64,000 nt of DNA, taken from the NCBI GenBank assembly GCA_963807635.1, contig CAWEDJ010000028.1:60823-124822 (forward strand), given 5' to 3'. This DNA is from an uncultured cyanobacterium (GTDB taxonomy: Bacteria > Cyanobacteriota > Cyanobacteriia > Cyanobacteriales > Microcystaceae). Positions 1-64,000 of the stretch are shown here, in pieces (the stretch's first letter is position 1; every line of letters begins with the position of its first letter). The translations under genes and the position numbers were made by a program. The notes under the pieces are model-generated. The model saw only the letters and a list, made by a program, of their open reading frames with translations, had not been told where the DNA came from and did not search any database.

Positions 1-1
1 A

Positions 2-898
2 GATGTAGGGCAGTACGGCGGTTCCTACAAAGTAACGAAAGATTTATACGAAAAATACGGTGAATGGCGGGTACTGGATACACCCATTGCTGAAAATAGT
101 TTTACAGGCATGGCCGTCGGTTCAGCGATGACAGGTTTGCGTCCCATTATTGAAGGAATGAACATGGGCTTTTTGCTGCTCGCCTTCAATCAAATTGCCA
201 ATAACGCGGGAATGCTCCGTTATACTTCTGGGGGAAATTTTAAAATTCCGATGGTGATTCGGGGGCCAGGCGGAGTGGGCAGACAACTCGGTGCAGAACA
301 TTCCCAACGACTAGAAGCCTATTTTCACGCCGTCCCAGGGCTAAAAATTGTCGCTTGTTCTACTCCCTACAATGCCAAAGGTCTTTTAAAGGCTGCCATT
401 CGTGACGATAATCCCGTCCTATTTTTTGAACACGTTTTACTCTACAACCTCAAAGAAAACCTGCCCGATGGGGAATATATTGTTCCCCTAGATAAGGCTG
501 AAATCGTTCGTCCTGGGAAAGACATTACTATTCTCACCTATTCTCGGATGCGTCACCATTGTTTACAGGCTCTCAAACAAATCGAAAAAGATGGTTACGA
601 CCCTGAAATTATTGATCTCATTTCCCTCAAACCCTTTGACATGGAAACGATTGGAGCATCTATTCGCAAAACCCATCGGGTAATTATTGTCGAAGAATGT
701 ATGAAAACGGGCGGGATCGCAGTGGAATTAATGTCTTTGATCACCGAGCAGTTTTTTGATGAACTAGATTCTCCTGTGGTGCGATTATCTTCCCAGGATA
801 TTCCGACTCCCTATAACGGAGCCTTGGAACGGTTAACCATTGTTCAGCCTCATCAGATTGCCGAAGCCGTTAAGAAAATGATGAATTTAGGTTTCTAA
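2..898 (+). CDS. pdhB: Pyruvate dehydrogenase E1 beta subunit, 5' end outside the window
   Basis: Frame is open from base 2 ([16 protein letters not shown]...DTPIAE), continuing into GAEHSQRLE and [10 protein letters not shown], typical of cyanobacterial/plastid PdhB. Confidence 0.96.
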
Positions 899-1026
899 TC
901 GTAGATTTAGGTTAAATAAATCGCAATCCAGCAAACACGCACGATGGATTACAGTTTATTTAAGGATTTGTTCCATTTCTTTGGGGTTAATCTAGGTTAT
1001 TGGGTTCTACAGACTATTTAAGTTTA

Positions 1027-1050
1027 AGGGCGCACGCCATGCGCCCCTAC
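1027..1050. repeat. REP-like GTAG-tailed palindrome
   Basis: AGGGCGCA-cgcca-TGCGCCCCTAC hairpin ending in CTAC, between pdhB and secD. Confidence 0.55.
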
Positions 1051-1098
1051 TAAAACTAATTTTTTTACACAACTGTATAGTAAATTAGACTCTGTTTT

Positions 1099-1129
1099 GT
1101 TGGGTTTGTCTGTATTTAACCCAACTTAC
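1099..1129. repeat. Second REP-like palindrome
   Basis: GTTGGGTT...AACCCAAC-TTAC inverted repeat resembling cyanobacterial GTAGGTTGGG repeats. Confidence 0.45.
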
Positions 1130-1227
1130 TTTTTTAATGTCATAGCGTTAAGACCCTATTTTTTGGTAGAGTTCAAAAATATCAGGCTCAACACCTATCT
1201 TTCTATTTCTTACTTCCTTCTTCCCGT

Positions 1228-2646
1228 ATGCAAAAACAGCGTTGGTTAATTGCCCTCATCCTAACTCTAGTGGTCGGTTCCTTTGTGGTTTTGTTTAAAC
1301 TACCTCTACAACTCGGTTTAGACCTCCGAGGGGGGGCGCAGTTAACGATGGAAGTCCAACCGACCAAAGAAGTCACTCAAATTAAACCAGAAGATCTGGC
1401 CGCCGTTAAAACCGTAATTGAAAATCGGGTCAATGCCTTGGGGGTATCGGAACCCTTAGTGCAAACAGTGGGGCAGGATAAAATTTTGGTGCAATTGCCT
1501 GGGGTCACTAATCCTGAACAGGCAGAACGGATTTTAGGGGGAACGGCTCAACTAGAATTTCGGGAACAAAAGCAGGGAACGGAAGGAGAATTTCAGGCTG
1601 AATATAGCATTAAACGCCAATTAGAGGCTCAATCGGTTTTTTTGAGAAAGCAAAATGTTGATCCGACTAAATTAACAGAATTAATTAAATCTCTAGATGG
1701 TTCTAATCAAGCGATTCTAAAACTATTTGAACCGGTTGGATTGACAGGAAAAAATCTCAAGGATGCTCGTCCTTCTCCCACTCAGGCGGGTAATGCGTGG
1801 GAAGTGGCGATTCGTTTTGATGAATTTGGTGGTCAGAAGTTTGCCGAGTTAACCAAAAATTTAGCGGGAACGGGTCGGAGTATCGGAATTTTTCTGGATA
1901 ATAGTTTGATTAGTGCGCCAGTGGTCGGGGTTGAGTTTGCGAGTACGGGAATTTCGGGCGGTAGTGCGGTTATTACGGGCAATTTTACGGTAGAAACTGC
2001 CAATGATTTAGCAGTGCAGTTGAGAGGCGGATCTTTACCTTTCCCTGTAAAAGTGGTGGAAAATCGGACGGTGGGAGCAACTCTTGGGCAAGATAGTATT
2101 CGTCGTAGTATTGTTGCTGGGGCGGCTGGATTATCCTTGGTTCTCATCTTTATGGCGGTTTATTATCGCTTGCCTGGGGTTATTGCCGATGTATCCTTGT
2201 TAATCTATACCTTATTGAGTCTGGCGGCTTTTGCTTTGATCGGGGTGACGTTAACTCTTCCAGGAATTGCGGGTTTTATTCTGAGTATTGGGATGGCAGT
2301 GGATGCCAATGTGCTGATTTTTGAGCGGACTCGTGAGGAATTGCGGGCGGGGAACACGCTCTATCGGTCAGTTGAAGGCGGTTTTTATCGGGCTTTTTCC
2401 AGTATTTTGGATAGTAATGTGACGACTTTGATTGCCTGTGGCGCACTTTTTTGGTTGGGTTCAGGTTTGGTTAAGGGCTTTGCGTTGACCTTGGCGATCG
2501 GGGTTATGGTCAGTATGTTTACGGCTTTGACCTGTAGCCGCACGTTACTCTTAATGGTCGTTCTGGGAGTGCCTGGCATTCGTCAAAAACCTGAGTTATT
2601 TTGTCCCAACTTAGACAATGCCGCGATCGCGAAAGGTTCGGTGTAG
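1228..2646 (+). CDS. secD: Protein translocase subunit SecD
   Basis: LGLDLRGG, GVSEP, GMAVDANVLIFER and ILDSNVTT motifs. Confidence 0.97.
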   Translation: MQKQRWLIALILTLVVGSFVVLFKLPLQLGLDLRGGAQLTMEVQPTKEVTQIKPEDLAAVKTVIENRVNALGVSEPLVQTVGQDKILVQLPGVTNPEQAERILGGTAQLEFREQKQGTEGEFQAEYSIKRQLEAQSVFLRKQNVDPTKLTELIKSLDGSNQAILKLFEPVGLTGKNLKDARPSPTQAGNAWEVAIRFDEFGGQKFAELTKNLAGTGRSIGIFLDNSLISAPVVGVEFASTGISGGSAVITGNFTVETANDLAVQLRGGSLPFPVKVVENRTVGATLGQDSIRRSIVAGAAGLSLVLIFMAVYYRLPGVIADVSLLIYTLLSLAAFALIGVTLTLPGIAGFILSIGMAVDANVLIFERTREELRAGNTLYRSVEGGFYRAFSSILDSNVTTLIACGALFWLGSGLVKGFALTLAIGVMVSMFTALTCSRTLLLMVVLGVPGIRQKPELFCPNLDNAAIAKGSV

Positions 2647-2693
2647 GCGATCGCGATTAAATCAGTAATTAAATTATTAGGAGAAGCAAAAAA

Positions 2694-3623
2694 ATGAGAA
2701 TTGATGTGATTAAACGGGAAAAATTTTGGTGGTCAACTTCCGTTTTTATTATTGCCTTTGGTCTGATTGCGATGGCGGTTTCCTGGTCAATTATTGGCAC
2801 ACCTTTAAAGCCTAGCTTAGATTTTATCGGTGGAACTCGTTTACAATTGCAACTAGAATGTGCCGTTAATAAGAGTTGTGCCGAACCGATTGATGCGGCT
2901 AAGGTACGTTCTGTTTTAGATGAGGAAGGATTGGGAGCAAGTGGCATTCAAATTGTTGAAGATTATACTTTGTCCATTCGTGCTAAAACCCTGGATGTGG
3001 GAGAAAGAACCAAACTTCAACAAGTTCTAACGGAAAAAATTGGTAAATTTAATCCTGAAACCATTCAAATTGACACAGTTGGCCCGACCATCGGCAAAGA
3101 ATTATTTACTTCTGGACTGTTAGCGTTAATTCTTTCTTTTGCGGGTATTGCTGTTTATTTAAACTTTCGTTTTCAATCAGATTATGCCTTTTTCGCGATC
3201 GTTGCCTTATTTCACGACATTTTATTAACCGTCGGAATTTTTGCGATTTTAGGGTTAGTAGCAGGTGTAGAAGTTGATAGTTTATTTTTAGTGGCGTTGT
3301 TAACGATTATCGGTTTTTCAGTCAATGATACTGTCGTTATTTATGACCGCATTCGAGAAAATTTAGAGAAATATCCCGATGAGCCGATTAATGACATTGT
3401 GGATGATTCTGTTAATCAAACCCTATCCCGTTCTATTAATACAACTTTAACGGTGTTATTACCCCTGGTAGCAATTTTCTTCTTTGGTGGTGAGACTTTA
3501 AAATATTTTGCTTTAGCTTTAATTATTGGCTTTTCAACGGGAGCCTATTCGAGTATTTTTATTGCTAGTACCCTACTCGCTTGGTGGCGTAATCGTCCAA
3601 GTTTAAAGAAAGCAACGTCTTGA
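2694..3623 (+). CDS. secF: Protein translocase subunit SecF
   Basis: [29 protein letters not shown] and GAYSSIFIA motifs; follows secD. Confidence 0.97.
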
Positions 3624-3742
3624 TTTAACTCTTCATTACTAACGAATACTCCCAAATCTGATCACTCGTTGCTAAATTCTGATAAAATTCGATTTGGCTC
3701 CCGTTTTGATTATTCATTGACCCCTATCGAGAAAAGCACACC

Positions 3743-5013
3743 ATGATTCACGACATCTTCATGCCAGCCCTGAGTTCGACGATGACCGAAGGAAAAATCG
3801 TTTCCTGGGTTAAATCTCCTGGCGACAAAGCTGGCCAAGGGAGAAACCGTTTTGGTCGTCGAGTCAGATAAGGCCGATATGGATGTGGAATCCTTCTATG
3901 AGGGTTATTTGGCCATTATTCTCGTCGAAGCAGGTAGTGAAGCTCCCGTTGGTTCCGCGATCGCGTTGATTGCCGAAACTGAAGCTGAAATTGCGATCGC
4001 CCAGGAACAGGGTAAAGCCGCCGCCGCTCCATCCCCAACCGCAGTTCCCACAACCGCTCCCGTTGTTGTAGAAGCCTCCCCTGTGACCGTTGCAACCACA
4101 ACGAATGGCAGTGGTCGATTAATTGCTTCACCGCTTGCCAAAAAACTGGCTAAAGAATTAAAAATTGATTTAAAAGGACTCCAAGGTAGTGGCCCTCACG
4201 GTCGAATTGTGGCAGAAGATGTAGAAAAAGCGGCTGGAAAAGCCCCAACAGTGGCCGCCGTGATCACTCCATCCTCCGTTGCAACGCCTACTCCCCAACC
4301 CGTTGTTTCAACTGTACCCATACCTGTTACCGCGATCGCAGGAGAAACCGTTCCCCTCACCACCTTCCAAAAAGCCCTGGTGCAGAACATGGTGTCCGCC
4401 ATGCAGGCCCCGACTTTCCGAGTGGCTTATACCATCACCACCGATGGACTGGATAAGCTTTATAAACAGGTCAAATCCAAAGGCGTAACCATGACGGCCC
4501 TTTTAGCCAAAGCGGTTGCTGTCACCCTGAAAAAACATCCCCTTGTCAATGCCAACTACACAGAAAAAGGCATTCAACACAACGCCGCCATCAATATTTC
4601 GATCGCGGTCGCCATGCCCGATGGCGGTTTGATTACCCCTGTTTTACAAAATGCGGATCAAGTGGATCTTTATTCCCTTTCTCGTCGTTGGAAAGAATTA
4701 GTCGAACGGGCGCGGGCTAAGCAGTTGCAACCCGAAGAATACAGCACGGGAACTTTCACGATTTCTAATTTGGGAATGTTTGCGAGTCGATCGCTTTGAT
4801 GCCATTTTACCCCCTGGTCAGGGAGCGATTTTAGCCGTCGGTGCGTCTAGTCCCCAGGTGGTGGCAACCAATGAGGGCTTAATGGGCATCAAACGTCAAA
4901 TGTGTGTAAACATCACCTGTGACCACCGAGTGATCTACGGGGCTCACGCCGCCGCTTTCCTACAGGATTTGGCAACGTTGATTGAAAGCAATGCTCAATC
5001 TTTAACCCTCTAA
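3743..5013 (+). CDS. pdhC: Pyruvate dehydrogenase E2 dihydrolipoamide acetyltransferase, with two apparent frameshifts (~3831, ~4783)
   Basis: MIHDIFMPALSSTMTEGKIVSW start at 3743, lipoyl ESDKA, E3-binding GSGPHGRI and catalytic DHRVIYG, spread over successive frames. Confidence 0.93.
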
Positions 5014-5142
5014 AAACCACGTCTGTTGAATTTTCTCATCTCCCAAAAACTGCTCTAAAATGGAGGTAAGTTTCTTCTTGCTTGTTTGCAGTTAATCAAG
5101 CAGGGAAAAGATTAGCCAAATTATTGAGAATTGCCAAGATAT

Positions 5143-5430
5143 ATGAGTCCCTTATTGCCTCGGTTTGTTAAAATTGCCTATCGTAAAGAACCCATTTCTA
5201 GTTTTATTTTGATTGTGGGGGCAGTCGATGTGGTGATTGGGGGAATGGGCGAAAAATGGAGTTTATTGTCGATTGGGGTTGCAACTGCCCTCTTAGCGGT
5301 AGGAATGCGTTGGTGGCAATCCCAGAAATCCGAGGCGATCGCGGTGGAACAACCTCCCAGACGCTATTTACCCCCAGCCTCTTCCCGCGCCCCGTTACCT
5401 AATTTAACCAAAGAAAATCGGCATTACTAA
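5143..5430 (+). CDS. Small hypothetical membrane protein
   Basis: Two hydrophobic segments (YRKEPISSFILIVGAVD..., LLSIGVATALLAVG) and a Pro-rich tail. Confidence 0.7.
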   Translation: MSPLLPRFVKIAYRKEPISSFILIVGAVDVVIGGMGEKWSLLSIGVATALLAVGMRWWQSQKSEAIAVEQPPRRYLPPASSRAPLPNLTKENRHY

Positions 5431-5444
5431 ATCCGTTAACGGGA

Positions 5445-7013
5445 TTAATATTTCTCTAATTCGGCGATCGCTTCGGCTAATTCAAACAACGGTGCCAAAA
5501 CCGTTTCAAAGGGTAAGGTCTGCTTTTTTAGATCTGGTTCGTAATTTTCAGCATAGATATTCAGATTCACCCGTTCGTTGGATTGATAGGGAGTATCTAG
5601 TTTAAAAAGTAATCGTGAACCATCGGTAAAAACCAGGTTTAAGCCAACCTGTTCTACTCGTTGAAACTGTAATTCATTATAAAATTTTAGGGGCTGACTA
5701 TAGGCGACTTGATAGGGGCCGTATTCTTTCCCCTTAAGATTTAGGGTCGTCAAAGCGTGCAATTTATCATACATCGCAGAGAAGGTTAATCCTGGATAAA
5801 GTTGACAGCCGTGATAATTTCTGCCGTATTTTTGCCAATGATTTTGAACAGTTTTAAGGACGGATTGGGGACGAGCTGCGAGTAAATTTAGCCAAAATAA
5901 TAGGGCCCAGAGTCCATCAGTTTCTCGGCTATAATTTGCGCCAATTTGTCCCTCTTCGTTGCCGCCAAAAGTTACTCCTTGAATGTCCATCAGTTGACTG
6001 GTAAAAGTCCAATCAGTAGGGGTTTCATAACAGACAATATCTAAGGCGGTACAGGCATGATCGACCGCAGTACTGGCAAATAGCGATCGCGTTATGGCGT
6101 TGACCGCTCCTCGGTAAGCAGGAATGAGGGGAGAATTTGCCGTTAAAATCGCTAAACTATCACTGGCGGTTACCCCAATATTTTTGCCAAAAATCCCGTA
6201 GCGATCGCCCACCAAAATACAGGTGATATCGGGGGGATCAATTTTCCAAGGAAGATTGGTAGTTCCGATTAAAGCATCTAGAAAGATCGGAGCCATTTCA
6301 AAGGTGACAGTCCCTGGTAATAAACCCAGATTTTTTTCTAATAAATGTTGACTATAAGCGTAATTAATGGGGTCAAGACAGGTTACCACCACTCGAAAAT
6401 CTTGAGTTTTTAAAAAGTGTTGAATACTATCTAAATCAAAAATCGAAGACATCAATTTTTCGTAGATTGCGGCGGAATTAACCACTTCAACTGTCAAGTT
6501 TTCCAGGGCAACAATCCCTAAACGATTGAGGGAAATATCACTGCTGTCTAAAATTTGATAATTCTGAATAATTTGGGTGCGTTCTTGAATTCCTTCTAAA
6601 GCGTTGAAGGTTGCCTTGGAACCATTACCTAAATAATAATCGAGATGGATTTCTCCGCCCTTTTCTGAAGAATGAATCTGAATTAAAATTCCTGCGATCG
6701 CCGTGTGACGACGAATGAGGTAGGACGCGATCCCAGGAGAAAGTAATCCTTGGGAACCGACAATCACTTTCCCAAAGCCATTAGCGGCGGCTAACTTGAT
6801 AATGGTTTGTAAAAATCCCTGGGTGATATCCTGACCGTCTCCGCCTAAAACGAGAGTTTGACCCTGCCGATTGGGGAGAATTGTAAAAAAACTTTGGACA
6901 GCATTTTCTAGATAATGGGGTTGCCGAAAAACCGACAGGGGCTTACGCAGACCATAGGGGAACAGTTTTTGATCCGCAAAGGGTTGGGTGGGAACTGTCC
7001 GAAGAAGGGTCAT
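5445..7013 (-). CDS. Phosphoglucomutase-like protein with degenerate catalytic motifs
   Basis: Full-length PGM framework (GLRK, QPHYLEN, LGGDG, YETPT, HWQKYGRNY, FTDGSR) but no SASHNP or DxDxDR. Confidence 0.8.
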   Translation of the reverse strand: MTLLRTVPTQPFADQKLFPYGLRKPLSVFRQPHYLENAVQSFFTILPNRQGQTLVLGGDGQDITQGFLQTIIKLAAANGFGKVIVGSQGLLSPGIASYLIRRHTAIAGILIQIHSSEKGGEIHLDYYLGNGSKATFNALEGIQERTQIIQNYQILDSSDISLNRLGIVALENLTVEVVNSAAIYEKLMSSIFDLDSIQHFLKTQDFRVVVTCLDPINYAYSQHLLEKNLGLLPGTVTFEMAPIFLDALIGTTNLPWKIDPPDITCILVGDRYGIFGKNIGVTASDSLAILTANSPLIPAYRGAVNAITRSLFASTAVDHACTALDIVCYETPTDWTFTSQLMDIQGVTFGGNEEGQIGANYSRETDGLWALLFWLNLLAARPQSVLKTVQNHWQKYGRNYHGCQLYPGLTFSAMYDKLHALTTLNLKGKEYGPYQVAYSQPLKFYNELQFQRVEQVGLNLVFTDGSRLLFKLDTPYQSNERVNLNIYAENYEPDLKKQTLPFETVLAPLFELAEAIAELEKY

Positions 7014-7738
7014 AGGTTACTGTGAGAATGGGGGATATTTTCTGACGGGGACGGAGCAGTGGGGGAATGCAGGTTTTCGGGTTGACTGACCTTGGCTCGG
7101 TACAAAAGCTTTTTACCCTGGCGATAACCCACATAACGCACGATGACGGTACTGCCCGCTTCAACGGTTCCATCCATTAATTGATGCCATTGGGGATTAT
7201 AACTGACGCTTTCTCCCACCGCCGCGATCGCTTCAATTTTCCATTGTTGCAGAAGATTCGCCAATGGTTTCATCAGAGGTAATAACTTAATGGCAGGAAA
7301 TTGGGGATTTTTATGGGCGGCGGCCGCGGCAGTAGGCCATTGCAGTAACCAGGATTCTAAAATCGTGATGGCGTGATTTTGAAATTCCTGAACTAAGGTT
7401 TCCCGTTGTTGATCAAATTTTTGCTGGAGTTTTTGATATTCCGACTCTAACCGTTCGATCTCTGCACTGCGATCGTCAGTGTTGGGTTCGATTTCCGTTG
7501 GGGAATAGCCTGAATCAGGACAAAGCTGGGCTAACACTTTTTCAGGAGAAAGTTTGAGAGCAGTGGCTAATTTAATCAAATTTTCCACAGACATTTTAGA
7601 CAATAACCCGTACTGAATACGAGCTAATTGCCAACTAGAGAGTCCCGAAATTTGGCTTAATTCGTCAAGATCAGCAATTCCCGCCTGTTGCATCAGGTCG
7701 GCTAAAGGGAGGGCATAGGGAGGAAGCGTTGATTTCAT
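7010..7738 (-). CDS. XRE-type HTH, coiled coil and GrpE-like C-terminal domain protein
   Basis: N-terminal HTH; C-terminal YNPQWHQL...VRYVGY...LLYRAKV resembles the GrpE beta domain. Confidence 0.7.
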   Translation of the reverse strand: MKSTLPPYALPLADLMQQAGIADLDELSQISGLSSWQLARIQYGLLSKMSVENLIKLATALKLSPEKVLAQLCPDSGYSPTEIEPNTDDRSAEIERLESEYQKLQQKFDQQRETLVQEFQNHAITILESWLLQWPTAAAAAHKNPQFPAIKLLPLMKPLANLLQQWKIEAIAAVGESVSYNPQWHQLMDGTVEAGSTVIVRYVGYRQGKKLLYRAKVSQPENLHSPTAPSPSENIPHSHSNL

Positions 7739-7887
7739 AATTTCATAGTGGAGTAAGAGTAAAACTTAATAATAGTTGAAAATTTTAACCCCCATTCCAC
7801 CAGTACCGAAGAACTTTTAAACAATTTCACAATCCTTACCGAACAAGGACTTTAAGCTTTCGTTCAGTTCCGCAGTCCAGCGATCGC

Positions 7888-9394
7888 CTAAACATCATAA
7901 CCAAATAAATTAGGATTCACCTCGGTTAAATTGAGATCCCCTAAACCGTATTCTTGCCAACGTTGAGTCACTTTTTCTGCCGTATCAGGATCGGACTCTA
8001 ACACCGCACCCCATTCATGATCGGTCTCAGGAGGAATTTTTGTGGTGGCATCAATGCCCATTCGTCCGCCTAAACCAATTTTTTCGCTGGCAAAATCCAG
8101 GGTATCAAAGGGTGTTTCGGGCAAAATAAAGACATCGCGCACAGGGTCAACCTTGGAACTGATCGCCCAAACCACTTGACGAGGATCGCGGATATTAATC
8201 GATTTATCGACCACAATCACAAATTTTGTATAGGTAAACTGGGGTAAGGCACTCCAAAAAGCGAGGGCGGCTCGTTTGGCTTGACCTGGATAGGCTTTAT
8301 CGATAGAAATAATGGCCGCTTTATAACTCAGGGCTTCCATCGGTAAGAAAAAGTCGGTAATTTCCGAAACCTGTTGGCGCAAAATGGGGGTATAGATGCG
8401 GTTAAGTGCGATCGCCATCATCGCTTCTTCCTTGGGAGGTCGGCCACTAAAAGTCGTGAGATAAATGGGATCTTTGCGATGGGTGATAGCATGAAAACGC
8501 ACTAGAGGAGAATCTTCCACACCGCCGTAATACCCCATGTGATCGCCAAAGGGGCCATCGGGTAACATTTCGCCAGGGGTCATGGTTCCTTCTAATACAA
8601 ATTCTGAGTCGGCAGGAACTTCTAAATCGACCGTTTTACAGCGAGCCAATTTTACGCCTGATCCCCCGTATAGACCCGCAAATAACCACTCCGATAGATC
8701 CACAGGAATGGGAGTAGCCGCCGCCATGATGATCAACGGATCGACTCCTAACGCGATCGCAATTTCTAATTTTTTTCCTGCTTCTGCGGCCTTGCGTAAG
8801 TGTCTGGCTCCTCCCCGCACCGAGAGCCAATGAACGGTCATGGTATTTTTGGATTGCAATTGCAGACGATAAACCCCCACATTGGGCGTACCTGTTTCGC
8901 AATCTTTGGTAATGACTAATCCCAAGGTAATAATTTGACCTGCATCGCCTGAATAGGGACGAATCATGGGGATTTGGGTTAAATCTACATCATCGCCTTC
9001 GATGACTATCTGTTGACAGGGGGGAAAATAATCGCGGCTCGGTTTGGCTTTGAGGACATCAAATAGCACTTTGCCAAAATCGATCGCTTGGGAGACGGTT
9101 TTGGGTGGTTTGGGTTGTTGCAACATGGACAATTTTTTGCCTAAATCCTCTAATTCCAAGGGATTTTCCATGTTCATTGCCCGACCAGATGCGTTCGACG
9201 GTTCCCATTAAATTGACGGCAATGGGAAAGGCTGAGTCTTTGACGTTTTCAAACAATAGGGCTGGGCCGCCTGCTTGCAACATTCGGTTGGCAATTTCTG
9301 CAACTTCGAGGTCGCGATCGACTGGGGCTGTGATGCGTCGTAATTGTCCCCGTTCTTCGAGCAGTTGGATGAATCCCCGTAAGTCTCTGGCCAT
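7888..9394 (-). CDS. ubiD: UbiD family prFMN-dependent decarboxylase, frameshift ~9180
   Basis: MARDLRGFI, GPALLFENV, NVGVYRLQ, DGPFGDHMGYY and GRMGIDAT motifs. Confidence 0.92.
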
Positions 9395-9500
9395 GATGAT
9401 TAAAAAACTATTAAGTTTAGAGTTATTTGTGTGATCCTAACAAAAATCAATCCCTTAAAACAAGCTATAATCGCGATAGTACTAAATTTTCCTGTCAAAA

Positions 9501-53129: not shown

Positions 53130-53298
53130 TTTGTACCTCCGTGGCCCTTGCCATTATACATCCTTATCTCCGCGCCATCGCGGGCAGACGCCAATAGCGG
53201 TCCGTCGAACGGCCGTCAAACGACGCGCGTGGCGGCCCGTAGTGCGACTTTGGCGGGGGCTGCTGTATGTTTACACCCCCCTTTAAGGCCCTTTCCGC

Positions 53299-53578: not shown

Positions 53579-53827
53579 CTTTCATTCTTTCAATTTAGAC
53601 GTGTAGATTACCCGCCGCTCACCTACGGTGGATTCATCTGCGCAATCTCGGGACTATGGAGGGCTAACTTCATGGCATGGCGGCCTGCTCCTTCTCCATT
53701 CCGTTGCGTTTCGGCTGGAATTGCTTGTCCAGGCCATCCAGCACCTCGATTGTGTATTCCGCCATGAAGTATGCTGCTTAATTATGGCGATCACCCTCAC
53801 CCCGGCCAGGTACGGATCCTGCCCTCG

Positions 53828-54682: not shown

Positions 54683-54695
54683 GGGTGTGCCTCCT

Positions 54696-55572
54696 TTAGT
54701 CGTAGATGCGCCGCAGCCTTCGGAAGAAGAAAGAGCTGATGACCAGCATGATGACCAGCAGGATATAGGCCAGCGCCGAGGCGTAGCCGGAGTTGAAGTT
54801 TCGAAGGCCCGTGAGGTAGATGTAGAAGGAATAGGTCTGAGTGGCCATGCCCGGGCCCCCCGAGGTGAGGCTGAAGGGGATGTCCAGCAGCTTGAAGGTC
54901 TCCACCATGCGCAGAATGATCACCGTGAAAAGCACCGGGCCCAGCATGGGGAATGTGATGCGGCGGAACATCTGCCAGCCCGAGGAGGTGTCAAGGACGG
55001 CCGCCTCGTAGACCTCCTCGGGAAGAGACTGCAGCCCCGCCAGGCACACCAGGAAGCAGAAGGGGGTCCACTGCCAGATATCCACGATGGAGATAGCCAG
55101 CCGCGCCAGCCAGATGTTGGAGAACCACTGTGGCGCGTGAAGCACGCCCAGGGCTTTGAGCACGGTGTTCACCGCGCCCACGTCCTCGTGGAATATTGTC
55201 AACCCTAGGTAGCCCAGAGCGATAGGTGCGACGAACATGGGCATGGTGAAAAGCGAGCGGAAGAATCGGTTGCCCTTAAGGGCCTTGCGCAGGGGGCGGG
55301 AGAAGATCATGGCCAGCAGCAGCCCCAGCACGACGGTGAGCGTAACGTCGAAGACGACGAAGAACACTGTGGTCTGCAGCACGGCCCAGAAGCGATAGTC
55401 GCCGAAGGCCTGGCCATAGTTCTGAAACCAGATGAAAAACTGAGGCCCGGTGAGGCGGGCGTGGAAGAAGCTCAGCCGCAGGGAGTACAAGAGAGGGAAA
55501 GATGGTGAACACCAGCACCCAGGCGATGCCGGGAACAACGAAGAGGAACTTGATCCGCTCTTTCTTCCGCAT
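54696..55572 (-). CDS. Carbohydrate ABC transporter permease (MalF-like), frameshift ~55495
   Basis: DIWQWTPF, EVYEAAVLD and TSGGPG motifs. Confidence 0.9.
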
Positions 55573-55631
55573 GACTTCTCCTCGTCTCTGCCGCGCCGCC
55601 GCCGCACGGGCTCTCACGGGTGACACAGAAG

Positions 55632-55657
55632 GGGAGGGCCCACGGAGGGGCCCTCCC
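55632..55657 (-). terminator. Intergenic hairpin after the binding-protein gene (mRNA stabiliser/attenuator)
   Basis: GGGAGGGCCC-N6-GGGCCCTCCC perfect 10-bp stem. Confidence 0.55.
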
Positions 55658-55678
55658 GTCGGATGAAGTGCGCAGATC

Positions 55679-57309
55679 CTACTTGTAACCGATGGACTCC
55701 TGGTAGAGCTTCAGCTCCTGGTCCTTGCCGATGTCGTTGACGATGCGCTTCCAGTCCGCCGCGGTCCTGTCCAGAGCCTGCTTTGCGCTGATCTGGCCCG
55801 TGATCGCCTCGGAGAGATGCACGTCCCAGACCTCCTCCATCTCGGGGGTGCCGGGAATGCGCAGGTAGTTCTGGAAGATGGGATAGGTGTAGAAATCGTC
55901 CTGGTAGGCATTCACGTAGTACACCGCATCGCTCTTGTTCCAGCCCGCCGCCTCATACTCATCCGGGGTCGCCGTGCCGTAAGGCGGGAACCAGTCGTAC
56001 GTGGTCCCAGGGTTCAGGCCCGACCAGCCCTCCAAGACGTGGAAGTGGTTGATGGACGGCGTAGCCTGCAGGGCCATCCAGTAGTAGCAGAGATCCTGGT
56101 TCTTGGCGTACTTGGACATGACCGGGTTCCAGGAGCAGCCGACCTGGTTGCCCACGAGGTTCGGCTTCGTGAGGTTCAGGAACTTCTTCTGCTGCATGTC
56201 ATAGGGGTGCAGGGTTCCCGGTAATCCCCGAGCGCCTTCCAGGCCCATGATCTTGGACTGCGTGGGGTCCTGACACAGCGCGCCGACATCTCCCCACGAG
56301 CAGCAGAACACAGCGTTGCCTGAAAGGAAGTCAGCCCAGGCCTCGCCCAGGCTCCAGCCCCACATTGCCGGGGACCCGGCCTTGGACAGCTTCATCAGCA
56401 TCTCGAGGGCCGCCACGTGCCCGGGAGAATTGATGAGAGGCTCCATGGTCACAGGGTCGAACCAATACACGTTGTGGTAGCGGTCCACCTTCGTGACCGG
56501 CTTGCCGGGATAGGGGATGACCACGTAGGGGGCGGACAGCGCCATGTAGTGGAAGAACCCCTGGCCTCCCACCTTCAGGTGCATGGTTATGCCGTCGATG
56601 GGCTTGCCACCAGGTCCCAAGGGCTTGCCGTTGAAGAACTGAGCGATCTCCAGCACGTCGTCCCATGTGTCCATCTTGACCGGGCATGGCGTGGCCCTTT
56701 ACCTTCTTGAACTCCGCCTGCCACTTGGGGTCACTGAGGATGTCCTGGCGCCAGTAGAGGATCATCGCGTCATGGTCGTTGTTGCTCCCGTACCAGTGGT
56801 TCCCCCACTGGTAGAGGTTGGCGACGGCGGGCGATATCGACTTGCCGGTCCCACTTGGGCATCCGCGGATCGTTGAAGTACTTGTCGAGAGGCAGGACCC
56901 AGTCGTTGGCGATGTAGTCCCCGTAGTAGCTGGAGCAGTTGATGATGATGTCGTACTTGCCCGATCCAGTCTGAAGGTCGGTGAAGATCTTTTCGCGCAG
57001 CTCTGCAAAAGGGATCTCGACGATGTCGTATGTGGCGCCCGTCAGCTCCTGGAACTTGTTCCTCCAGTAGTAGACCGGCCCGGAGATAGCGCCGCGCTGG
57101 CCCGCGGAATACACGCCAATGGTGAAGTTCTTGCCCTTCCAGGCGGGGTCGGGATTGCCCTTGTCAGCCTTGTCCCAGGCGGCCTGGGCCAGATCTGCTT
57201 CCTGCTGGGTCAAGGCCGGGACGCCGTTGATCAGCTGGGCCCACCCCGTTTTTGCCGCTCCCAGACCGAGCGCGGCAAAAACACAGATTAGAACCATGAA
57301 CCTTTTCAT
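55679..57309 (-). CDS. Sugar ABC transporter substrate-binding protein, two apparent frameshifts
   Basis: Signal peptide; GKYDIII, LYWRQD, TWDD and LRIPG motifs across ORFs 57309-56770, 57008-56331 and 56674-55679. Confidence 0.85.
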
Positions 57310-57647
57310 CCTGCAGCCTCCTGTGCAATGGAATGACGTTTTGAGAACAGCGCGAGGACCGCGGCACGCATAAAACCGCGCGCGAGACCCTCTTTTCGCT
57401 AGCCCGGCATCACCTCCTTTCCATTTTCATGCCCCCGGCGGGACATGCTGATGCAAAACCTGCCGAACCCTTGCCCCAGGATCAGGTGATGTCCATATCG
57501 ACAGTCTTCGAGCACACTGGCAATTGGCCAAGGGATCGGCCCTCGAGGCGGCACAGAGGCAACCATCTTTCCTCCCACTTTTTAAACCACTCTGTCTCTC
57601 GGAACCATTATATCATCAGGTCTCGAGAAGTCAACTCGCGGAACTCT

Positions 57648-58154
57648 CTACTTCAAGCCGCACGGGCAGGGCTCGGGAACCGTGGCGAACGAATTCTCAG
57701 ATGCATTCGGATAGGGCGCCGTTGTCGGGGTCCCGCCGCGATTGACGAGCTTGAATCCGGCTGCTTTCCAAGCCGTGATTCCGCCGTCGAGCATGAAGAT
57801 GTTCCTGAACCCGTCCTTCAGAAGATTGCGTACGGCGATGTCTGCCATCCGGTTGGTCATGCAATAGATCACGATCTTCGAATCCTTGTCATGGGGGTAG
57901 TCCCCGATCCGCGCCTCCGTATCCAGGTAGCTGATCAGCGCGTCGGTCCCCGGGATCTCACCCGCGTAGGGCACGTGCACGTTCACCAGGAAGAAATCCT
58001 TGGAAGCGAGCATCTCGGACAGCTCAGCCGCGCTGATGCTCCGGTAGGCCCCCTCTTCGATCCGCACCTGAGTCCCGCGCTCCGCCATGGCGGCGGCAGG
58101 GACCATGAGAAGCAGCACGGGAAGGATTGTCGCAAAGATAATCGGGCTGCGCAT
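57648..58154 (-). CDS. Exported rhodanese-domain protein with a C-terminal CPC motif
   Basis: Signal peptide; VNVH...EIPG, IYCMTNRM and LDGG..AW motifs. Confidence 0.8.
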   Translation of the reverse strand: MRSPIIFATILPVLLLMVPAAAMAERGTQVRIEEGAYRSISAAELSEMLASKDFFLVNVHVPYAGEIPGTDALISYLDTEARIGDYPHDKDSKIVIYCMTNRMADIAVRNLLKDGFRNIFMLDGGITAWKAAGFKLVNRGGTPTTAPYPNASENSFATVPEPCPCGLK

Positions 58155-58362
58155 GTGCACCTCCTGACACTCTTCTCATGACCAATGCTTGCGTGCCAGC
58201 GCCCTCCCGATGTCCCTGTCGTACCAGAGCGCTCCCCCCATTCCCTGCGCAAGGCAGGCACTACTTGAATGGCTCCCAGCCTCACATCATAGCGCGCGTG
58301 CAGCCGCAGTCAATCGGGACGCCGGCCGCCCACCCCGGCTGCCTCATGGAATGCCTCCTTGG

Positions 58363-59301
58363 CTACCCATGGCTCTCGGCGAACCTGAGCACGTCTTCAA
58401 AAGGCCGTGCGGCCGTTGTGGTGCCGATTTCGGTGACGCACAGGGCCCCGACAGCGTTTCCCAGTTCTGCGCATCTCCTTGTTTCCCACCCCTTCGACAG
58501 GCCCGCGAGGAAACCGGCGCAAAACGCGTCGCCTGCACCGGAGGTGTCCTTCACGACGATGTTCTTCAGGGCTGGCACGTGAAATCCCGTCCCCTTGTGC
58601 TCGGACACGTAGCAGCCGCCCGCACCTAGCTTGATCACCACGTTCCTTGCGCCCTTCTCGAAAAATACGCGCGCGATCCTCGCGGCATCTCGTTCGCCGC
58701 TCAGCTCCACGGCCTCCTCGTAGCTCGGCATGAACCAGTCGAGGTATTGCAGGGAAACCTCGATCTTCCTCATCCACATGCCGCTCGCGTCCCAGGCGGT
58801 GTCGAGGGCGCACAGCACACCCTCTTCCTTTGCCTGACGCAGCACCTTGGCCGCATCCTGGCCATCGAAGCGCGGAAGTATGAACGTCCCGCCGATGAAA
58901 AGGATCCGGGTCCGCGAAAAAAAGCTCACATCGATGTCCTCGAAGCAAAGGGTTCCATTGGTGCCGAGATAATGCATGAGCGTCCTCTCGCCGCTCGCGT
59001 CGATCGCGACAAGGGTACCGGAAGTTCCCGTGGCGCCATCCCGGGTCAACCCCGAACAGTCGACACCCGCCCTTTCGAAGGTCTTAATGATCACCTCTCC
59101 CAGGGGGTCATTACCAGTCTTCCCCAGGATCGCGGTTTTGATACCCATCACCCCGAGGTAGACGGCCGGGTTCAGACCACAACCGCCGGGAGACACATGG
59201 AGGTTGTCGATGAAGACGAGTTTGCCCTTGGGAGGGAGTGCTTCTAACGGCTTCACCATGACGTCGACGCACATATGCCCGATGACGCACACATCGTACA
59301 T
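58363..59301 (-). CDS. PfkB family carbohydrate kinase
   Basis: PGGCGLN, GERT and DTSGAGDAFCAGF motifs. Confidence 0.92.
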   Translation of the reverse strand: MYDVCVIGHMCVDVMVKPLEALPPKGKLVFIDNLHVSPGGCGLNPAVYLGVMGIKTAILGKTGNDPLGEVIIKTFERAGVDCSGLTRDGATGTSGTLVAIDASGERTLMHYLGTNGTLCFEDIDVSFFSRTRILFIGGTFILPRFDGQDAAKVLRQAKEEGVLCALDTAWDASGMWMRKIEVSLQYLDWFMPSYEEAVELSGERDAARIARVFFEKGARNVVIKLGAGGCYVSEHKGTGFHVPALKNIVVKDTSGAGDAFCAGFLAGLSKGWETRRCAELGNAVGALCVTEIGTTTAARPFEDVLRFAESHG

Positions 59302-59375
59302 GGCCGTCCTCCCCGTTCTATCAGCCCTGGCCTTCAACCGTGTCCCGGTCGAGCATGCGCAGCGGCCACTCCACG

Positions 59376-60281
59376 TTAAGCACCTGCCTTCTTCACGGAT
59401 CCGAAAATTCTCATCAGCCGCACGACCTCCGTCGCAACATCGGCGCGCGCGGCTGCCATCATGTCTAGCTCGCCTCCGGTGCTGGTCACTTCGCCGGGAT
59501 CGAGGAGGTCCGCATCATGCTTCTGGAAGTAGCCCTTCAGCGAGTTGATGAATGCGCGGCGCAGGGCTGTGCCGACATTCACCTTGCAGATCCCCGCGGC
59601 GATTGCCGCTTTCAGGTCGTCCTGGTCGATGCCTGTGCCGCCGTGGAGAACCAGAGGGATCCAGATTCTCTCTTGCAGCTGGGCGAGCAGTCCCAAATCG
59701 AGCCTCGATTTCCGCCCCTCCAGGATATGGACATTGCCGACCGCCACGGCCAGGGCATCGACGCCGGTCTTTTCAACGAATTGCTCCGCCTCCCCAGGAT
59801 CGGTCGCGATACCCACACTCATCTTTTTCTTGCCGATCTCCCAGGCGGGCAGTTGCCCAAGCTCCGCTTCGACTTCTGCACCAACCGCGTGGGCAGCGCG
59901 CACCAGCGAGATGTTGATCTGTATCGATTGCTCGAGGCTGCAGCCTTCATGATCATGCATGACCACGTTGAACCCTGCATCGAGCGCAGTATGAAGAAGC
60001 GCGGGCTCATCGGCCTCGTTGAGGATGAGAGCCATGGGAACTCGCGCATGTTCCGCGACAGAGCGCCCAAGGCTACCGTAATGGTTGATGTTTTCTTTCA
60101 CCCTTCGATGCCTGTTTCCGAGGAACTTCCCGTTGAATCCGATGATAACGGGGGATTCGGCCTGCTCAGCGGCATCCTTCACGGCAAGCAGGGATTCCAG
60201 GTTCCACGCTTCGAAATACCCGACAGCATATCCGCGATCCCGTGCATGCCTTAATAGACTGGTCATCGATACTAGTGGCAT
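59376..60281 (-). CDS. Class II fructose/tagatose-bisphosphate aldolase-like protein
   Basis: GYAVG, VEAELG, LAVAVGNVH, PLVLHGGTG and KVNVGT motifs. Confidence 0.85.
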   Translation of the reverse strand: MPLVSMTSLLRHARDRGYAVGYFEAWNLESLLAVKDAAEQAESPVIIGFNGKFLGNRHRRVKENINHYGSLGRSVAEHARVPMALILNEADEPALLHTALDAGFNVVMHDHEGCSLEQSIQINISLVRAAHAVGAEVEAELGQLPAWEIGKKKMSVGIATDPGEAEQFVEKTGVDALAVAVGNVHILEGRKSRLDLGLLAQLQERIWIPLVLHGGTGIDQDDLKAAIAAGICKVNVGTALRRAFINSLKGYFQKHDADLLDPGEVTSTGGELDMMAAARADVATEVVRLMRIFGSVKKAGA

Positions 60282-60344
60282 TAGATTCCACCTTTCTGGA
60301 TTCGGAAAGGATACGGCCCCTTTCCTCGACCGCGAATAAGACAC

Positions 60345-60433
60345 TAGTTCATGAAGTCTGTAGTTTGTGCGAATGCTGCGGAGGGAGCAAAAAGGACCGC
60401 AAGAACTGCAGCAACGGCTGTTCGCTTTTCCAC
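60345..60433 (-). pseudogene. Orphan secretion-leader fragment
   Basis: GGAGG RBS, then GTG-EKRTAVAAVLAVLFAPSAAFAQTTDFMN*, homologous to the propeller gene leaders. Confidence 0.6.
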
Positions 60434-60769
60434 TTTGTTCCCTCCTTTGCCGCGGTGTTCGTCGGCATCACATAGGTGCCAGTGGGGGGAGGAACAACTT
60501 CAGAAGAATGTGAGTAGAGGAGTCCCTCTTGGCCTTCCACTTCCACGCCATAGCACCTTCTCCCTTCGCGCCATTGGCCATCAGCTGGCTTTGCGCGCCC
60601 ATTTCACATAGGGCTGTAGATGCCTTTGGAAGGTTGTATTGAACTCAGCCAGTCACGATTGTATCAGATGCTGCAAGCGCAACAACGTAGCGGTCGGCGA
60701 TCCTCGAAGCCATGAAGAACGAGAAGCGAGGCCGGAGAGACAAACCCGGCCCGCTCAATCTCCTTCCGC

Positions 60770-62367
60770 TCACCGACGGATAACCAACCTGCGCGCCAAT
60801 AGCATGTACCCCATCGCGTGGAAGTAGTGATCGGGCTGATCACCGGCCCACACATACCCCCCTTCCCCTCGGTTCAACTCCTGGTCGAACACGCGGGTCA
60901 GCGAGGTCATGTGAGCCAAAAACTCGGGAATCGACATCGCGTTGCCCGGCAGCTTGAACCTGGTCGGTCCCAGCATGATCGCCTCGTTCACGGCGTCCAA
61001 GTTGGCCGTACGGTCGACCGTTACCACCTTGCTTCTCGGGTCGAAAACGTCCCGCTTACCTCCAACGTATCGGCACATCCACCACCGTCGGGATGAATAG
61101 GCGAGCTTTCGCGACAACCTGGTCTCTGGCATTTCGTCGATGATGCCAGCCCGAAAATCAAATCGGCGCACGAGCATCCGCAAGTCGGCAAGGCTGAGTT
61201 GGCCTGGCACCGTGCCGATCCAGACTACACGAACCGACCCATCGGGATCTTGCTGGCCTATCACGACATGCAGCACGGCTCCAACGTCGACGCCGACGAA
61301 ACAAGGACCACCAGCAGGCCCTGGGCGTAGTCTCCAACACACTCTTGCAGATCGGCGATCTGGACCTTGGCGCCTTTGGCCTCGAATGCCTCGCCCATGT
61401 CTCCGTTCCAGAACCGTTGTGCCCGCGTCGGGTTAAAAAGCCCGTTATCGAAGCGGTCCAGCATCTCGTTAATCGTCATCTTGGTCGAGAACAGCTTGCT
61501 GACGTGGTACCCCCTCCAGAGCCCGTGGACGTTCTCGATCACCCATTCGCCCTTGCCGAACCGGTCAATCGGCTTCTCGCACTTGTCGCAAATCAATTTG
61601 GCCTCTGGTCCCCCGGGGCCCTCCCATTCAGGGTCAAGCACCTCGAACTTAGCCTCATCGATCTTCCTCACAACGTGCTTTCCCCACTCGGGGCGGATCA
61701 CGTGGCCACAAGTTCCTTTGATGTACCACCTTGATTGATCTGACTCCTTGTACAGCTTGGAGATCCCAAACCCGTCGATTGTGGGGTTGCCGATCAGCCA
61801 TTTGATCCGGTGCTCCGAGTTGGAAAGCCGCTCCTCGGCCATCGGCAGGTTAGTCTGGTCGCAGTTGTCGTACTCGTCGACCAGCAGCACGTCGGCGGGG
61901 AACTCGCCGAAGGCCGAGATCGACCCCGATCCGATGAAGGCGATCGCTGCCGTGCCGAAGTGTTTCAGGCTGACACTGGCCGACTGTGCAAGTCGCTTCG
62001 TCACTTCCCCGCTGATCCGCTCCCGGTAGTATGGAGTCAGCGCGACGGAGCGGTCGAACCTGTTGCGCACGAACCTGTTTCGTAGCTGCTCGGTCGGATA
62101 GACGGCGAAAACGCTCAGCCCCTCGTCGAGCGCCGCCATGGTCTTCACCATGAACAGCTCGGTCCAGCCGCCCTGGGTGGACTTCTTGCCGACGATCATC
62201 GGCGACTGGTCCAGTAGCACGGCCCTCATGTACGGATAGGCCCCCAAGTCAAACGGTCGGTTCTTGTGAGTGACGTGGTGCTCCCCCGCGAGCCAATAGG
62301 CCCGGTAGTGATCGTGCAGGTATTGCTTCCAGTCTTCAGGCGAATCAGCCTTCAGAGCCCTTGGCAT
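60770..62367 (-). CDS. Phage terminase large subunit (GpA-like), frameshift ~61320
   Basis: KKSTQGGWT, LLVDE, GNPT, CxxC pairs, GYHVSKL, and nuclease GVDVG...IDE...DHYFHA. Confidence 0.85.
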
Positions 62368-62812
62368 TTCCGTCTTTCAGGGCCACGTGCGGCATCAGCG
62401 CGACGATCTGATCCTCGAATGTCTTGTCGCGCTCCAACTTCTTTCTGCTGTCGATCCGCTGGGTTCGGATGTCAGCACGCAGAGTGTCTTTCCTGCCCCA
62501 TTTCGCCGGGTGCTTTCGCTCCAGCCTCCAGGCCGCCGCCTGCCATGTCGTCTTGGACGCCGCGACTATGGTCGCGATGTCGCGCATCTCACTTTCGGCC
62601 TGCGCTTTTTTTACTGAGTCCAAAAACTCGATGCATACCTTCTCTTGCCCGCGCGCACCGCGCTTCAGCCAGTTGAAAAGCGTCTGCTTGGACACACCGA
62701 CGTAGGCAGCGGCTGTCTCAAGGTAGTTCCCTGTTCTGAGGCCGATCACTATGTCATCGATGATCTTCCGGGTCAGCTTCGTCGGCCTACCCCCTGGATG
62801 CTTTCTACCCAT
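62345..62812 (-). CDS. Putative terminase small subunit / HTH protein
   Basis: GRPTKLT, HTH AAAYVGVSKQTLFNW and WQAAAWRLER; directly upstream of terL. Confidence 0.7.
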   Translation of the reverse strand: MGRKHPGGRPTKLTRKIIDDIVIGLRTGNYLETAAAYVGVSKQTLFNWLKRGARGQEKVCIEFLDSVKKAQAESEMRDIATIVAASKTTWQAAAWRLERKHPAKWGRKDTLRADIRTQRIDSRKKLERDKTFEDQIVALMPHVALKDGNAKGSEG

Positions 62813-63530
62813 GCTCCGCCAACCATCCTTCCGCGCACGCGACGAGCTTGTTGAATGCCACTGCGTTGCTCTTGATGTTCTCGCGTTTCTTCACTCGCGC
62901 CAGCAGGTCTCGGAAACGGTCCTCGACCGTCAGATCGACCACGCGCACCTGGACGTCGGGCCGCAGGGCGGCCTCCTCCAGCCGCTTGGCGACCTCATCG
63001 TACTTCTCGATCTCCCCGTCCGCCATGAACAGCGTGAACTCGGCGAACAGCTTCGGGGTGAATGACACGCTCTCGATCCCGATGTCCTTCAGGCTGTCGC
63101 GCGAGCCCGCTGTACACCTTCAGGTCCACCTCGCCGATCAGATCGTACAGTCTTCTGAAGAGTGAAGGCGTCGTCCTTGCCGACGATGGCGTTGTGGGAG
63201 AGCTGCTTGGCCACCGCCTCCTGGTCGCTCTGTACCGTCGGTCACCATGACGAGGATCTTCTCGATGCCCGCCCTCTTGGCGGCCTCGATTCGATGGTGG
63301 CCGCTCAGGATCTCGAGCTCACCCTTCTTGTTTCGAAACAGCAGCGGGACGCTTTCCAGCCTTCCGTCCCGCCTGAGGTTGGACACCAGAGCGTCCATCG
63401 TCGCTGGTCCATGTACCGGGCGTTCATGTCCCGCGGCCTGCACTCCCCTGGGGACACGAGGGCGATCTCTGGGAGGTTGCTCCTTTTCAGCTCCTCATTC
63501 AGGGCCGTCGATCTGTTCGTTGATCTCCAT
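62805..63530 (-). CDS. ParB N-terminal domain phage protein with several apparent frameshifts
   Basis: NARYM...LVSNLRRDG...ILSGHHRIEAA...QLSHNAIVGKDD. Confidence 0.75.
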
Positions 63531-64000
63531 ACCTGTCCCACCACTGGACGTATGCCTCTTGAATCGTTGACGCCACCATCCTTCTGGTGCTGTAGGTCAG
63601 CTCGTATTTCAGATGTGTCCCCTTCTTCCGCTTCGCCAGGCCGAACAGGCCGCGGTACTTCATGCTGACCGGGTCGTCCGTGTACACTTTCGTCGTGTAC
63701 CCATCGTGTTCCCAGAGCGTCTTCCTGTTGACCTTCCGAGCATCTCGTCGGTCAACAGCAGGTGCAGCACCAGCTTGGAGAGCCTCCTGTAGCCTGGAGG
63801 GCGGGCAGGGGTCAGAGATTATCACCGCGAGGCTCGAGCTGAGCATCATGCCGCTTGCCACTCCGGCGACGCCGACCACCAGATCGCCGACGAAGATGGC
63901 GTAGGAGACATCCTCGGCGCTCTTCATCCGCGCCTTGTGAGTCCACAGCTGCCGGTAGTGATTGAACCTTTGCCGGTCGATCTCAAGCATCCGTACGGGG
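63499..64000 (-). CDS. C-terminal part of a putative phage DNA-modification (methyltransferase/GNAT-like) protein
   Basis: LVVGVAG, SDP...RLSKLVL and T..PVSMKYRGLF motifs; position upstream of ParB-terS-terL. Confidence 0.5.
   Translation of the reverse strand, partial: PVRMLEIDRQRFNHYRQLWTHKARMKSAEDVSYAIFVGDLVVGVAGVASGMMLSSSLAVIISDPCPPSRLQEALQAGAAPAVDRRDARKVNRKTLWEHDGYTTKVYTDDPVSMKYRGLFGLAKRKKGTHLKYELTYSTRRMVASTIQEAYVQWWDRYGDQRTDRRP

What the first reader, a model, noticed from the sequence alone, without database searches (positions are those of the whole stretch)
1..64000. The window joins cyanobacterial, archaeal and GC-rich bacterial DNA
Seen: HIP1 octamers (e.g. 2623, 2647, 26099) are dense up to ~26.1 kb and then essentially stop. 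GC and codon style jump at ~26410. Promoter grammar becomes TATA-type from 26.4 to 33.5 kb, and Shine-Dalgarno/sigma70 signals return after ~38.2 kb. Both joins cut genes mid-domain. Inference: an assembly or concatenation chimera rather than biology, so gene neighbourhoods should not be interpreted across the joins.
Basis: partly seen in the sequence, partly recalled or inferred. Interest (0 to 1): 0.75.

Follow-up and report, generated by a model that had tools for sequence, protein, structure and literature searches.

The report
Three-organism chimeric contig end
This stretch of a draft cyanobacterial genome has archaeal DNA and then other, likely bacterial, DNA attached to the cut end of an essential gene, very likely by a sequencing or assembly error, so the genes past the join should not be read as the cyanobacterium's own.

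Summary
The window is the last 64 kb of contig C28 of a cyanobacterial draft genome. Bases 1-26409 are host DNA (34 of 37 HIP1 sites). At 26410 the only secA is cut; its 3' third is missing from the genome but present in 20 of 20 relatives. From 26410 the DNA is Conexivisphaerales archaeal (95-97% to three independent records), and two of those records continue upstream into an archaeal helicase gene. The partners share one base, with no repeat, tRNA or integrase. At about 38250 an IS21 gene lacking its first ~195 codons begins a GC-rich, bacterial-style stretch of unplaced lineage. Two other contigs have similar foreign ends; in one, the missing half of the cut groEL sits at the end of another contig, 3 bases away. 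Corrections: join 1 is intergenic on the archaeal side, and the archaeal piece probably runs to ~38250. Such chimeras are in print; two word searches of earlier scan notes found no cross-domain case.

The parts
1..26409 (.). Cyanobacterial host DNA (piece A)
   Evidence: 34 HIP1 sites, 43% GC; 90-98% nucleotide matches to same-genus genomes G003/G004 over most of it; an element at 17637-19162 has 99.5-100% copies on six other contigs of G000
22880..24193 (+). Serine recombinase gene of the host; not the integrase of an element
   Evidence: Pfam Recombinase/Resolvase; same place beside an intact secA in G004
24484..26409 (+). secA cut after codon 642; wing/scaffold domain missing from the whole genome
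26409..26410 (.). Join 1 (cyanobacterium to archaeon); one shared base (T at 26410), no extra bases
   Evidence: In-register view of the window, G004, L032 and L033
26410..34125 (+). Conexivisphaerales archaeal type IV pilus locus: pilins (26470, 26981, a third near 29400, 33519), assembly ATPase (29933-31415, two single-base frameshifts), TadC/UpsF-like membrane protein (31526-33478)
   Evidence: 97.3% to a Conexivisphaerales MAG contig L012 over 29056-32984; 94.9-97.2% to L032 and 95.4% to L033; NCBIfam TIGR02537 and UpsA/UpsF/BasE-like hits; contigs of 5 laid runs
34126..38249 (+). Probably archaeal variable slot: one ~990-codon restriction-modification-type methyltransferase gene (34244-37214) split by a frameshift near 35710, plus an unassigned minus-strand frame
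   Evidence: 55-64% identity to ~980-aa single proteins; the only two taxon-named hits of 120 listed are Thermoplasmata; TATA-like box; L032, X2 and X8 leave the window at 34118-34125
38249..38252 (.). Join 2 (archaeon to GC-rich piece), inside istA
   Evidence: Residues 1 to about 195 of 473-aa IstA relatives (89-91% identical) have no match in the window or in G000
38250..39916 (+). 5'-cut IS21 remnant (istA 3' half, istB)
   Evidence: Pfam IstB_IS21 and NCBIfam IS21; a contig of X10 matches 38885-39916 with 44 other letters in about 1030
39917..64000 (.). GC-rich, bacterial-style piece of unplaced lineage: IS630-like element (inverted repeats 40210-40245 and 41468-41503), IS5-like and IS1634-like transposases, four tyrosine recombinase genes, lactonase-repeat genes, sugar ABC transporter, rhodanese, PfkB, aldolase, terminase genes; ends at the contig end
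   Evidence: Pfam, repeats, SD motifs; no match in 5 same-genus cyanobacteria or, for 45001-64000, in 31 archaeal genomes around G021

Best explanation
The window is the end of a cyanobacterial contig on which archaeal DNA and then a third, likely bacterial, piece follow a cut secA gene, most likely because chimeric long reads (unrelated fragments joined end to end during library making) were kept by the assembler. Shown: the positions of both joins, the lineages of pieces A and B, the natural continuation of both partners at join 1, the one-base overlap, and two further foreign contig ends in this assembly. Inferred: that the joined molecules arose before assembly, and that the assembler followed them instead of the true path, which was left as a separate contig (binned for groEL, lost from the bin for secA). 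Artefact of any kind: about 0.97; this mechanism: about 0.7.
For: (1) G004 matches at 95.0% over 2085 bases up to exactly 26410 and goes on as an intact secA. The SecA frame is 931-985 aa in 19 of 20 relatives; the 20th starts at a contig edge. PF07516 rings in 20 of 20 relatives and 0 times in G000. None of the 10 G004 frames downstream of secA has an orthologue-level match in G000: 5 no hit, 5 at 31-62%. (2) L032 and L033 match from 26410 and continue upstream, L032 into a helicase-nuclease gene that is not in G000; an X8 contig also runs on about 478 letters past 26413 unlike the window (read from record coordinates). (3) The overlap is one exact base (four with one mismatch against L033); the longest shared word in 300 bases either side is 9-10 letters. 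(4) C65: host match ends at 5616 in 4 of 5 congeners; GroEL 1-226 lies on C65 and 228-542 (99.7%) at the very end of C25, 3 bases apart in G004. C102: host match ends at 54476 in G004 and G003. (5) The sequence errors are single-base insertions in the window against independent records, as expected of a long-read consensus. (6) Chimeric reads that stitch distinct genomes and can yield chimeric assemblies are described in bioRxiv 10.1101/2025.09.05.674543 (passages).
Against: No source reads were available: no listed run holds half of the junction stretch's words (best 0.20), so clipping and coverage were not measured. The expected rise in errors in the tail was not shown: 4 single-base coding insertions in 17,329 host bases against 3 in 5,500 archaeal bases, too few to differ. 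The tail is 37.6 kb, so one read would have to be very long, or several reads and at least two chimeric molecules are needed. Trigodet et al. found multi-domain chimeras through sites where all reads are clipped, which points to joins that no read supports; that favours the assembler-misjoin rival.
Confidence: 0.7

Rival explanations
1. Assembler misjoin with no chimeric molecule: the graph linked unrelated sequences at a spurious node and no read crosses the join.
For: [quoted passage not shown] Two joins within 12 kb and a true continuation starting 3 bases from the break fit a graph branch.
Against: No shared sequence at join 1 for an overlap to form on; metaMDBG's first round considers overlaps of about 600 bases on average (PMC11392814, passage). 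The assembler used for G000 is not known to me.
Confidence: 0.23
2. Separate contigs were concatenated by a scaffolding or file-handling step.
For: Blunt joins without homology; foreign DNA only at contig ends.
Against: No N in any contig; the window is inside one contig that the public protein collection holds at the same length, so the scan did not make it; only 3 of 107 contigs have such ends.
Confidence: 0.04
3. Real, very recent cross-domain transfer: a composite archaeal and bacterial island integrated into the cyanobacterial secA.
For: The tail holds many transposases and recombinases, and no read evidence excludes it directly.
Against: It would destroy the only secA, an essential protein-export motor (established knowledge). 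There is no att repeat, tRNA or edge integrase. The tail has no HIP1 enrichment and no match in 5 congeners. It would have to have happened three times in one genome, once through groEL whose other half is still present. In 8 laid runs the two sides appear in different runs and no listed piece bridges them (lists were cut).
Confidence: 0.02

Closest known systems
Multi-domain chimeric contigs of long-read metagenome assemblies (Trigodet et al., bioRxiv 10.1101/2025.04.22.649783; section 6 and passages read, figures and supplements not seen)
   Same: Three or more organisms from two domains on one contig; sudden shifts in GC and gene-level taxonomy; a cyanobacterium and an archaeon among the partners.
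   Different: There the joins were defined by read clipping and coverage, which I could not measure; here they are defined to the base by outside genomes, and the contig sits in a species-representative genome scored 93.7% complete and 3.05% contaminated.
Chimeric long reads (myloasm preprint, bioRxiv 10.1101/2025.09.05.674543; four passages read)
   Same: Segments of two or more distinct genomes stitched together, able to give a chimeric assembly and to break the true path.
   Different: No read was seen here; the link is inferred from blunt, homology-free joins.
Genomic islands and integrative elements
   Same: Foreign composition, many mobile genes.
   Different: No att repeats, no tRNA target, no edge integrase, target gene destroyed, no return to host DNA before the contig ends.
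Archaeal type IV pilus loci of the Ups/bindosome kind (piece B only)
   Same: Class III signal-peptide pilins, assembly ATPase and TadC-like protein; best NCBIfam hits UpsA, UpsF, BasE, BasF.
   Different: All scores are below those families' cut-offs (UpsF 366.7 against 400), so it is not filed as Ups or bindosome.

Membership tests
Multi-domain chimeric contig (Trigodet et al.) | Sudden shift in GC content or composition | tested here: met
Multi-domain chimeric contig (Trigodet et al.) | Shift in gene-level taxonomy across the join | tested here: met
   Cyanobacterial left, Conexivisphaerales right; third piece not placed
Multi-domain chimeric contig (Trigodet et al.) | Unexpected inventory of single-copy core genes | tested here: met
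   SecA wing domain absent in G000, present in 20 of 20 relatives; a foreign ffh-like gene on the C102 tail
Multi-domain chimeric contig (Trigodet et al.) | Read clipping and coverage shift at the breakpoint in the source reads | not testable with these tools
   No served run holds half of the stretch; all 8 laid runs are contigs of other populations
Repeat-induced misassembly | A repeat shared by both partners at the join | tested here: not met
   One shared base at join 1; longest shared words 7-10 letters around both joins. At join 2 the left partner's natural continuation is unknown, but no istA sequence lies left of the join
Genomic island / integrative element | att or target-site repeats at the edges | tested here: not met
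   Longest word shared by the two ends of the archaeal piece is 8 letters; the right end of the tail is the contig end, so a far-side repeat cannot be seen
Genomic island / integrative element | Integration at a tRNA or restoration of the target gene | tested here: not met
   No tRNA in the window; secA not restored anywhere in G000
Genomic island / integrative element | Integrase at the edge of the element | tested here: not met
   The serine recombinase at 22880 is host-syntenic; the first genes right of join 1 are pilins
Ups / bindosome pilus (piece B) | Scores above the NCBIfam cut-offs | tested here: not met
   the ATPase was scanned in two pieces, which lowers its score

The most novel reading that the evidence does not exclude
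A living cyanobacterial lineage has just taken up 12 kb of Conexivisphaerales archaeal DNA plus 26 kb of other DNA by blunt, homology-free joining inside secA, in some of its chromosome copies, with an intact secA allele missed by the assembly.
Probability: 0.02. Interest if true: 0.85.

Novelty: not a real feature. Interest (0 to 1): 0.08.

Why it matters
As biology it does not matter. As quality control it does: about 47 kb of foreign DNA (37.6 kb on C28, 5.6 kb on C65, 3.3 kb on C102) sits in a species-representative genome that passes at 3% contamination. Any note on window 26410-64000 belongs to an archaeon or an unknown bacterium, not to the cyanobacterium, and neighbourhoods must not be read across 26410 or 38250.

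Tried and rejected
Placing the third piece in a lineage failed: PfkB's closest relatives (77-83%) carry no taxon name, nor do the rhodanese and IstA relatives; plasmid IS21 matches were only 65-70%; no Atlas answer was obtained. Tetranucleotide scores separate host from tail clearly (r 0.94 with host for piece A; 0.71 between piece B and G021) but separate the archaeal and third pieces weakly. C39's foreign-looking start is an rRNA operon, rejected as a chimera. Single marginal 1-kb bins on C80 and C82 were not followed. A first indel count against G004 was spoiled by overlapping spurious frames and redone; the error-density test is inconclusive. Lack of cover of 34675-37342 in all 8 laid runs proves nothing. 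A third join at 34125 was considered, because L032, X2 and X8 leave the window there; it is thought less likely than a variable slot (about 25%), since L032 leaves 7 bases earlier and carries another restriction-modification-like gene end there, but it is not excluded. Rfam found nothing in the window. The serine recombinase at 22880 was rejected as an island integrase. A paper search on Conexivisphaerales pili gave nothing relevant in the 8 listed of 698.
Full report
Placement. The window is G000:C28:60823-124822, the last 64 kb of a 124,822-base contig in a 4.03-Mb, 107-contig genome without N. Most contigs have 38-44% GC and about 1-1.5 HIP1 sites per kb. HIP1 (GCGATCGC) is abundant in most cyanobacterial genomes (PMC13756078 and PMC4390886; search listing and start of abstract only).

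Observation. The window has 37 HIP1 sites against 1.7 by chance: 34 in 1-26409, 1 in 26410-38249 and 2 in 38250-64000; GC is 43.0, 56.2 and 58.6%. A Markov model trained on the host drops at about 26.4 kb and never recovers. TATA-like boxes precede 4 of 5 picked pilus-locus starts and the methylase start; SD motifs precede 6 of 10 picked starts right of 38250 and none of the 6 in between (crude test on hand-picked starts, 3 of 11 host starts also scored TATA).

Join 1, host side. secA begins at 24484 and loses homology after codon 642. Three recalled C-terminal SecA motifs occur nowhere in the six frames of G000, and tblastn finds only this copy. The wing/scaffold family PF07516 is absent from G000 (93.7% complete) and present in 20 of 20 relatives. 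The SecA frame is 931-985 aa in 19 of 20 relatives; the other starts at a contig edge. The closest genome, G004, is 95.0% identical over 2085 bases ending at 26410 and continues as normal secA. Of the 10 frames of at least 120 aa in the 13 kb downstream in G004, 5 have no hit in G000 and 5 only 31-62% hits, so the true continuation is missing from the bin.

Join 1, archaeal side. The ATPase finds 4 loci among species-representative genomes, all archaeal; the best is a Conexivisphaerales MAG contig (L012), 97.3% identical over 29056-32984. The first pilin finds 2 metagenome contigs, L032 and L033, which match from 26410 at about 95% and continue upstream; in L032 this is an intergenic stretch and then a helicase-nuclease gene, none of which is in G000. 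In register, the window equals G004 up to the T at 26410 and equals the archaeal records from that same T. The overlap is one exact base (four with one mismatch against L033) and there are no extra bases. No repeat, tRNA or integrase marks the site; the serine recombinase at 22880 is at the same place beside the intact secA of G004.

Extent of the archaeal piece. Relatives follow the window to 34118-34125 and then diverge (L032, X2, X8). The next gene is one ~990-codon methyltransferase split by a frameshift. The only two of its 120 listed relatives with a taxon name are Thermoplasmata, it has a TATA-like box, and L032 has the end of another restriction-modification-like gene at that site (my reading of the translation, not scanned). 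I read 34126-38249 as a variable slot of the same archaeon (about 75%); a further join at 34125 is not excluded.

Join 2. IstA relatives of 470-473 aa at 88-91% identity align from about residue 196; the first ~195 residues are absent from the window and from G000. The join lies at 38249-38252. The left partner's natural continuation was not found, so the overlap there is unknown, and natural decay of an IS21 cannot be excluded from this join alone. What follows is rich in insertion sequences, recombinases, a sugar ABC cluster and terminase genes, uses SD motifs, and matches nothing in 5 congeners of the host or, for 45001-64000, in 31 genomes around G021 (a search without a positive control). 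Its lineage could not be named. In a viral relative the terminase is followed by further phage-like frames with no match in the window, where an aldolase operon follows instead; this may be a remnant or another join.

Sequencing runs. None of the 24 listed runs holds half of the words of 21500-31400 (best 0.20), so the source reads were not available. Of 8 laid, X4, X11 and X16 cover the cyanobacterial side and have only traces right of the join; X1, X2, X3, X8 and X10 cover the archaeal side within 26413-34125. No listed piece or joint bridges 26410 or 38250, but the lists were cut (210 and 536 pieces not shown) and these are other populations, so this is weak.

The same assembly repeats the pattern. 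The Markov scan flagged six of 107 contigs. C39 is an rRNA operon and C80 and C82 are single marginal bins that I did not follow. C65 begins with 5.6 kb and C102 ends with 3.3 kb of GC-rich, HIP1-free DNA. On C65 the host match ends at 5616 in 4 of 5 congeners, inside groEL: residues 1-226 are on C65 and residues 228-542 (99.7%) start at the last base of C25, three bases further on in G004. The true path therefore exists in this very assembly. On C102 the match ends at 54476 in G004 and G003, just before the chlI-like frame.

Mechanism. Blunt joins without shared sequence, at contig ends, three contigs in one assembly, fit chimeric long molecules that the assembler followed in place of the true path. 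The errors are single-base insertions relative to independent records: 4 in 17,329 coding bases of the host part and 3 in 5,500 of the archaeal part, plus frame switches in istA, the terminase and the methyltransferase. That fits a long-read consensus but does not show lower depth in the tail. Chimeric reads are described as stitching distinct genomes and able to cause chimeric or broken assemblies (10.1101/2025.09.05.674543, four passages). The main rival is an assembler misjoin with no crossing read: Trigodet et al. report chimeras of more than three organisms and of different domains, one joining Euryarchaeota, Pseudomonadota, Bacteroidota and Cyanobacteria (10.1101/2025.04.22.649783, section 6 and 12 passages; figures and supplements not seen, and these may show how such joins look at base level). 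Against it, join 1 offers no overlap, while metaMDBG starts from overlaps of about 600 bases (PMC11392814, passages); the assembler used here is unknown. Real transfer is put at 2%, because it would delete the only secA and would need three such events.

Verdict. A known kind of artefact, now mapped to the base. Earlier scan notes held no cross-domain chimera under two word searches. One earlier first-reader note on the long pilin concerns the archaeon, not the cyanobacterium. Interest 0.08.

Noticed in passing
window 26981-29345; L032 2187-6064: The long archaeal pilin keeps its N-terminal (to 27378) and C-terminal (from 29056) parts between strains while the middle is swapped: 1.7 kb in the window, about 3.2 kb of unrelated sequence in L032 and X8. 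In L032 the gene is two frames (139 aa and 1152 aa), in the window one frame up to a single-base error at 29251. It looks like an exchangeable adhesin cassette inside a pilin of Conexivisphaerales; this may be the most interesting real biology in the window.
   Followed up: partly
window 33983-34087: A ~105-base element after the last pilin has 73-80% copies in G021, G025, G026 and G028 (5 places in G028). Its start resembles an IS200/IS605 end hairpin (recalled, not tested); no Rfam match. It borders the variable slot at 34118-34125.
   Followed up: partly
G000 C65:1-5615 (L055): Foreign GC-rich end with glycerol kinase and glycerol-3-phosphate dehydrogenase genes, joined inside host groEL; lineage not determined.
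   Followed up: yes
G000 C102:54477-57787 (L056 4477-7787): Foreign GC-rich end with an MtaA/CmuA-like and an ffh-like gene, several frameshifts; lineage not determined.
   Followed up: yes
window 47134-50002: Three tyrosine recombinase genes in a row on the minus strand, like a RIT element (name recalled), the third cut short beside an IS1634-like transposase.
   Followed up: no
window 60345-60770: Terminase genes end at 60770 and are followed by a hairpin and an aldolase/PfkB/ABC operon instead of the frames that follow in viral relative L078: prophage remnant or a further join.
   Followed up: partly
window 51388-53150: Two adjacent genes with lactonase-like propeller repeats of about 143 bases, both frameshifted.
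   Followed up: no
window 3831, 4783, 9183, 22462: Single extra bases in host coding sequence against G004 (three also against G003; 22462 also against X4, X11, X16): probable consensus errors, so apparent pseudogenes in this genome need care.
   Followed up: partly
window 9501-10865: A low-GC (27-37%) host-side stretch with no long match in G003 or G004; not examined.
   Followed up: no
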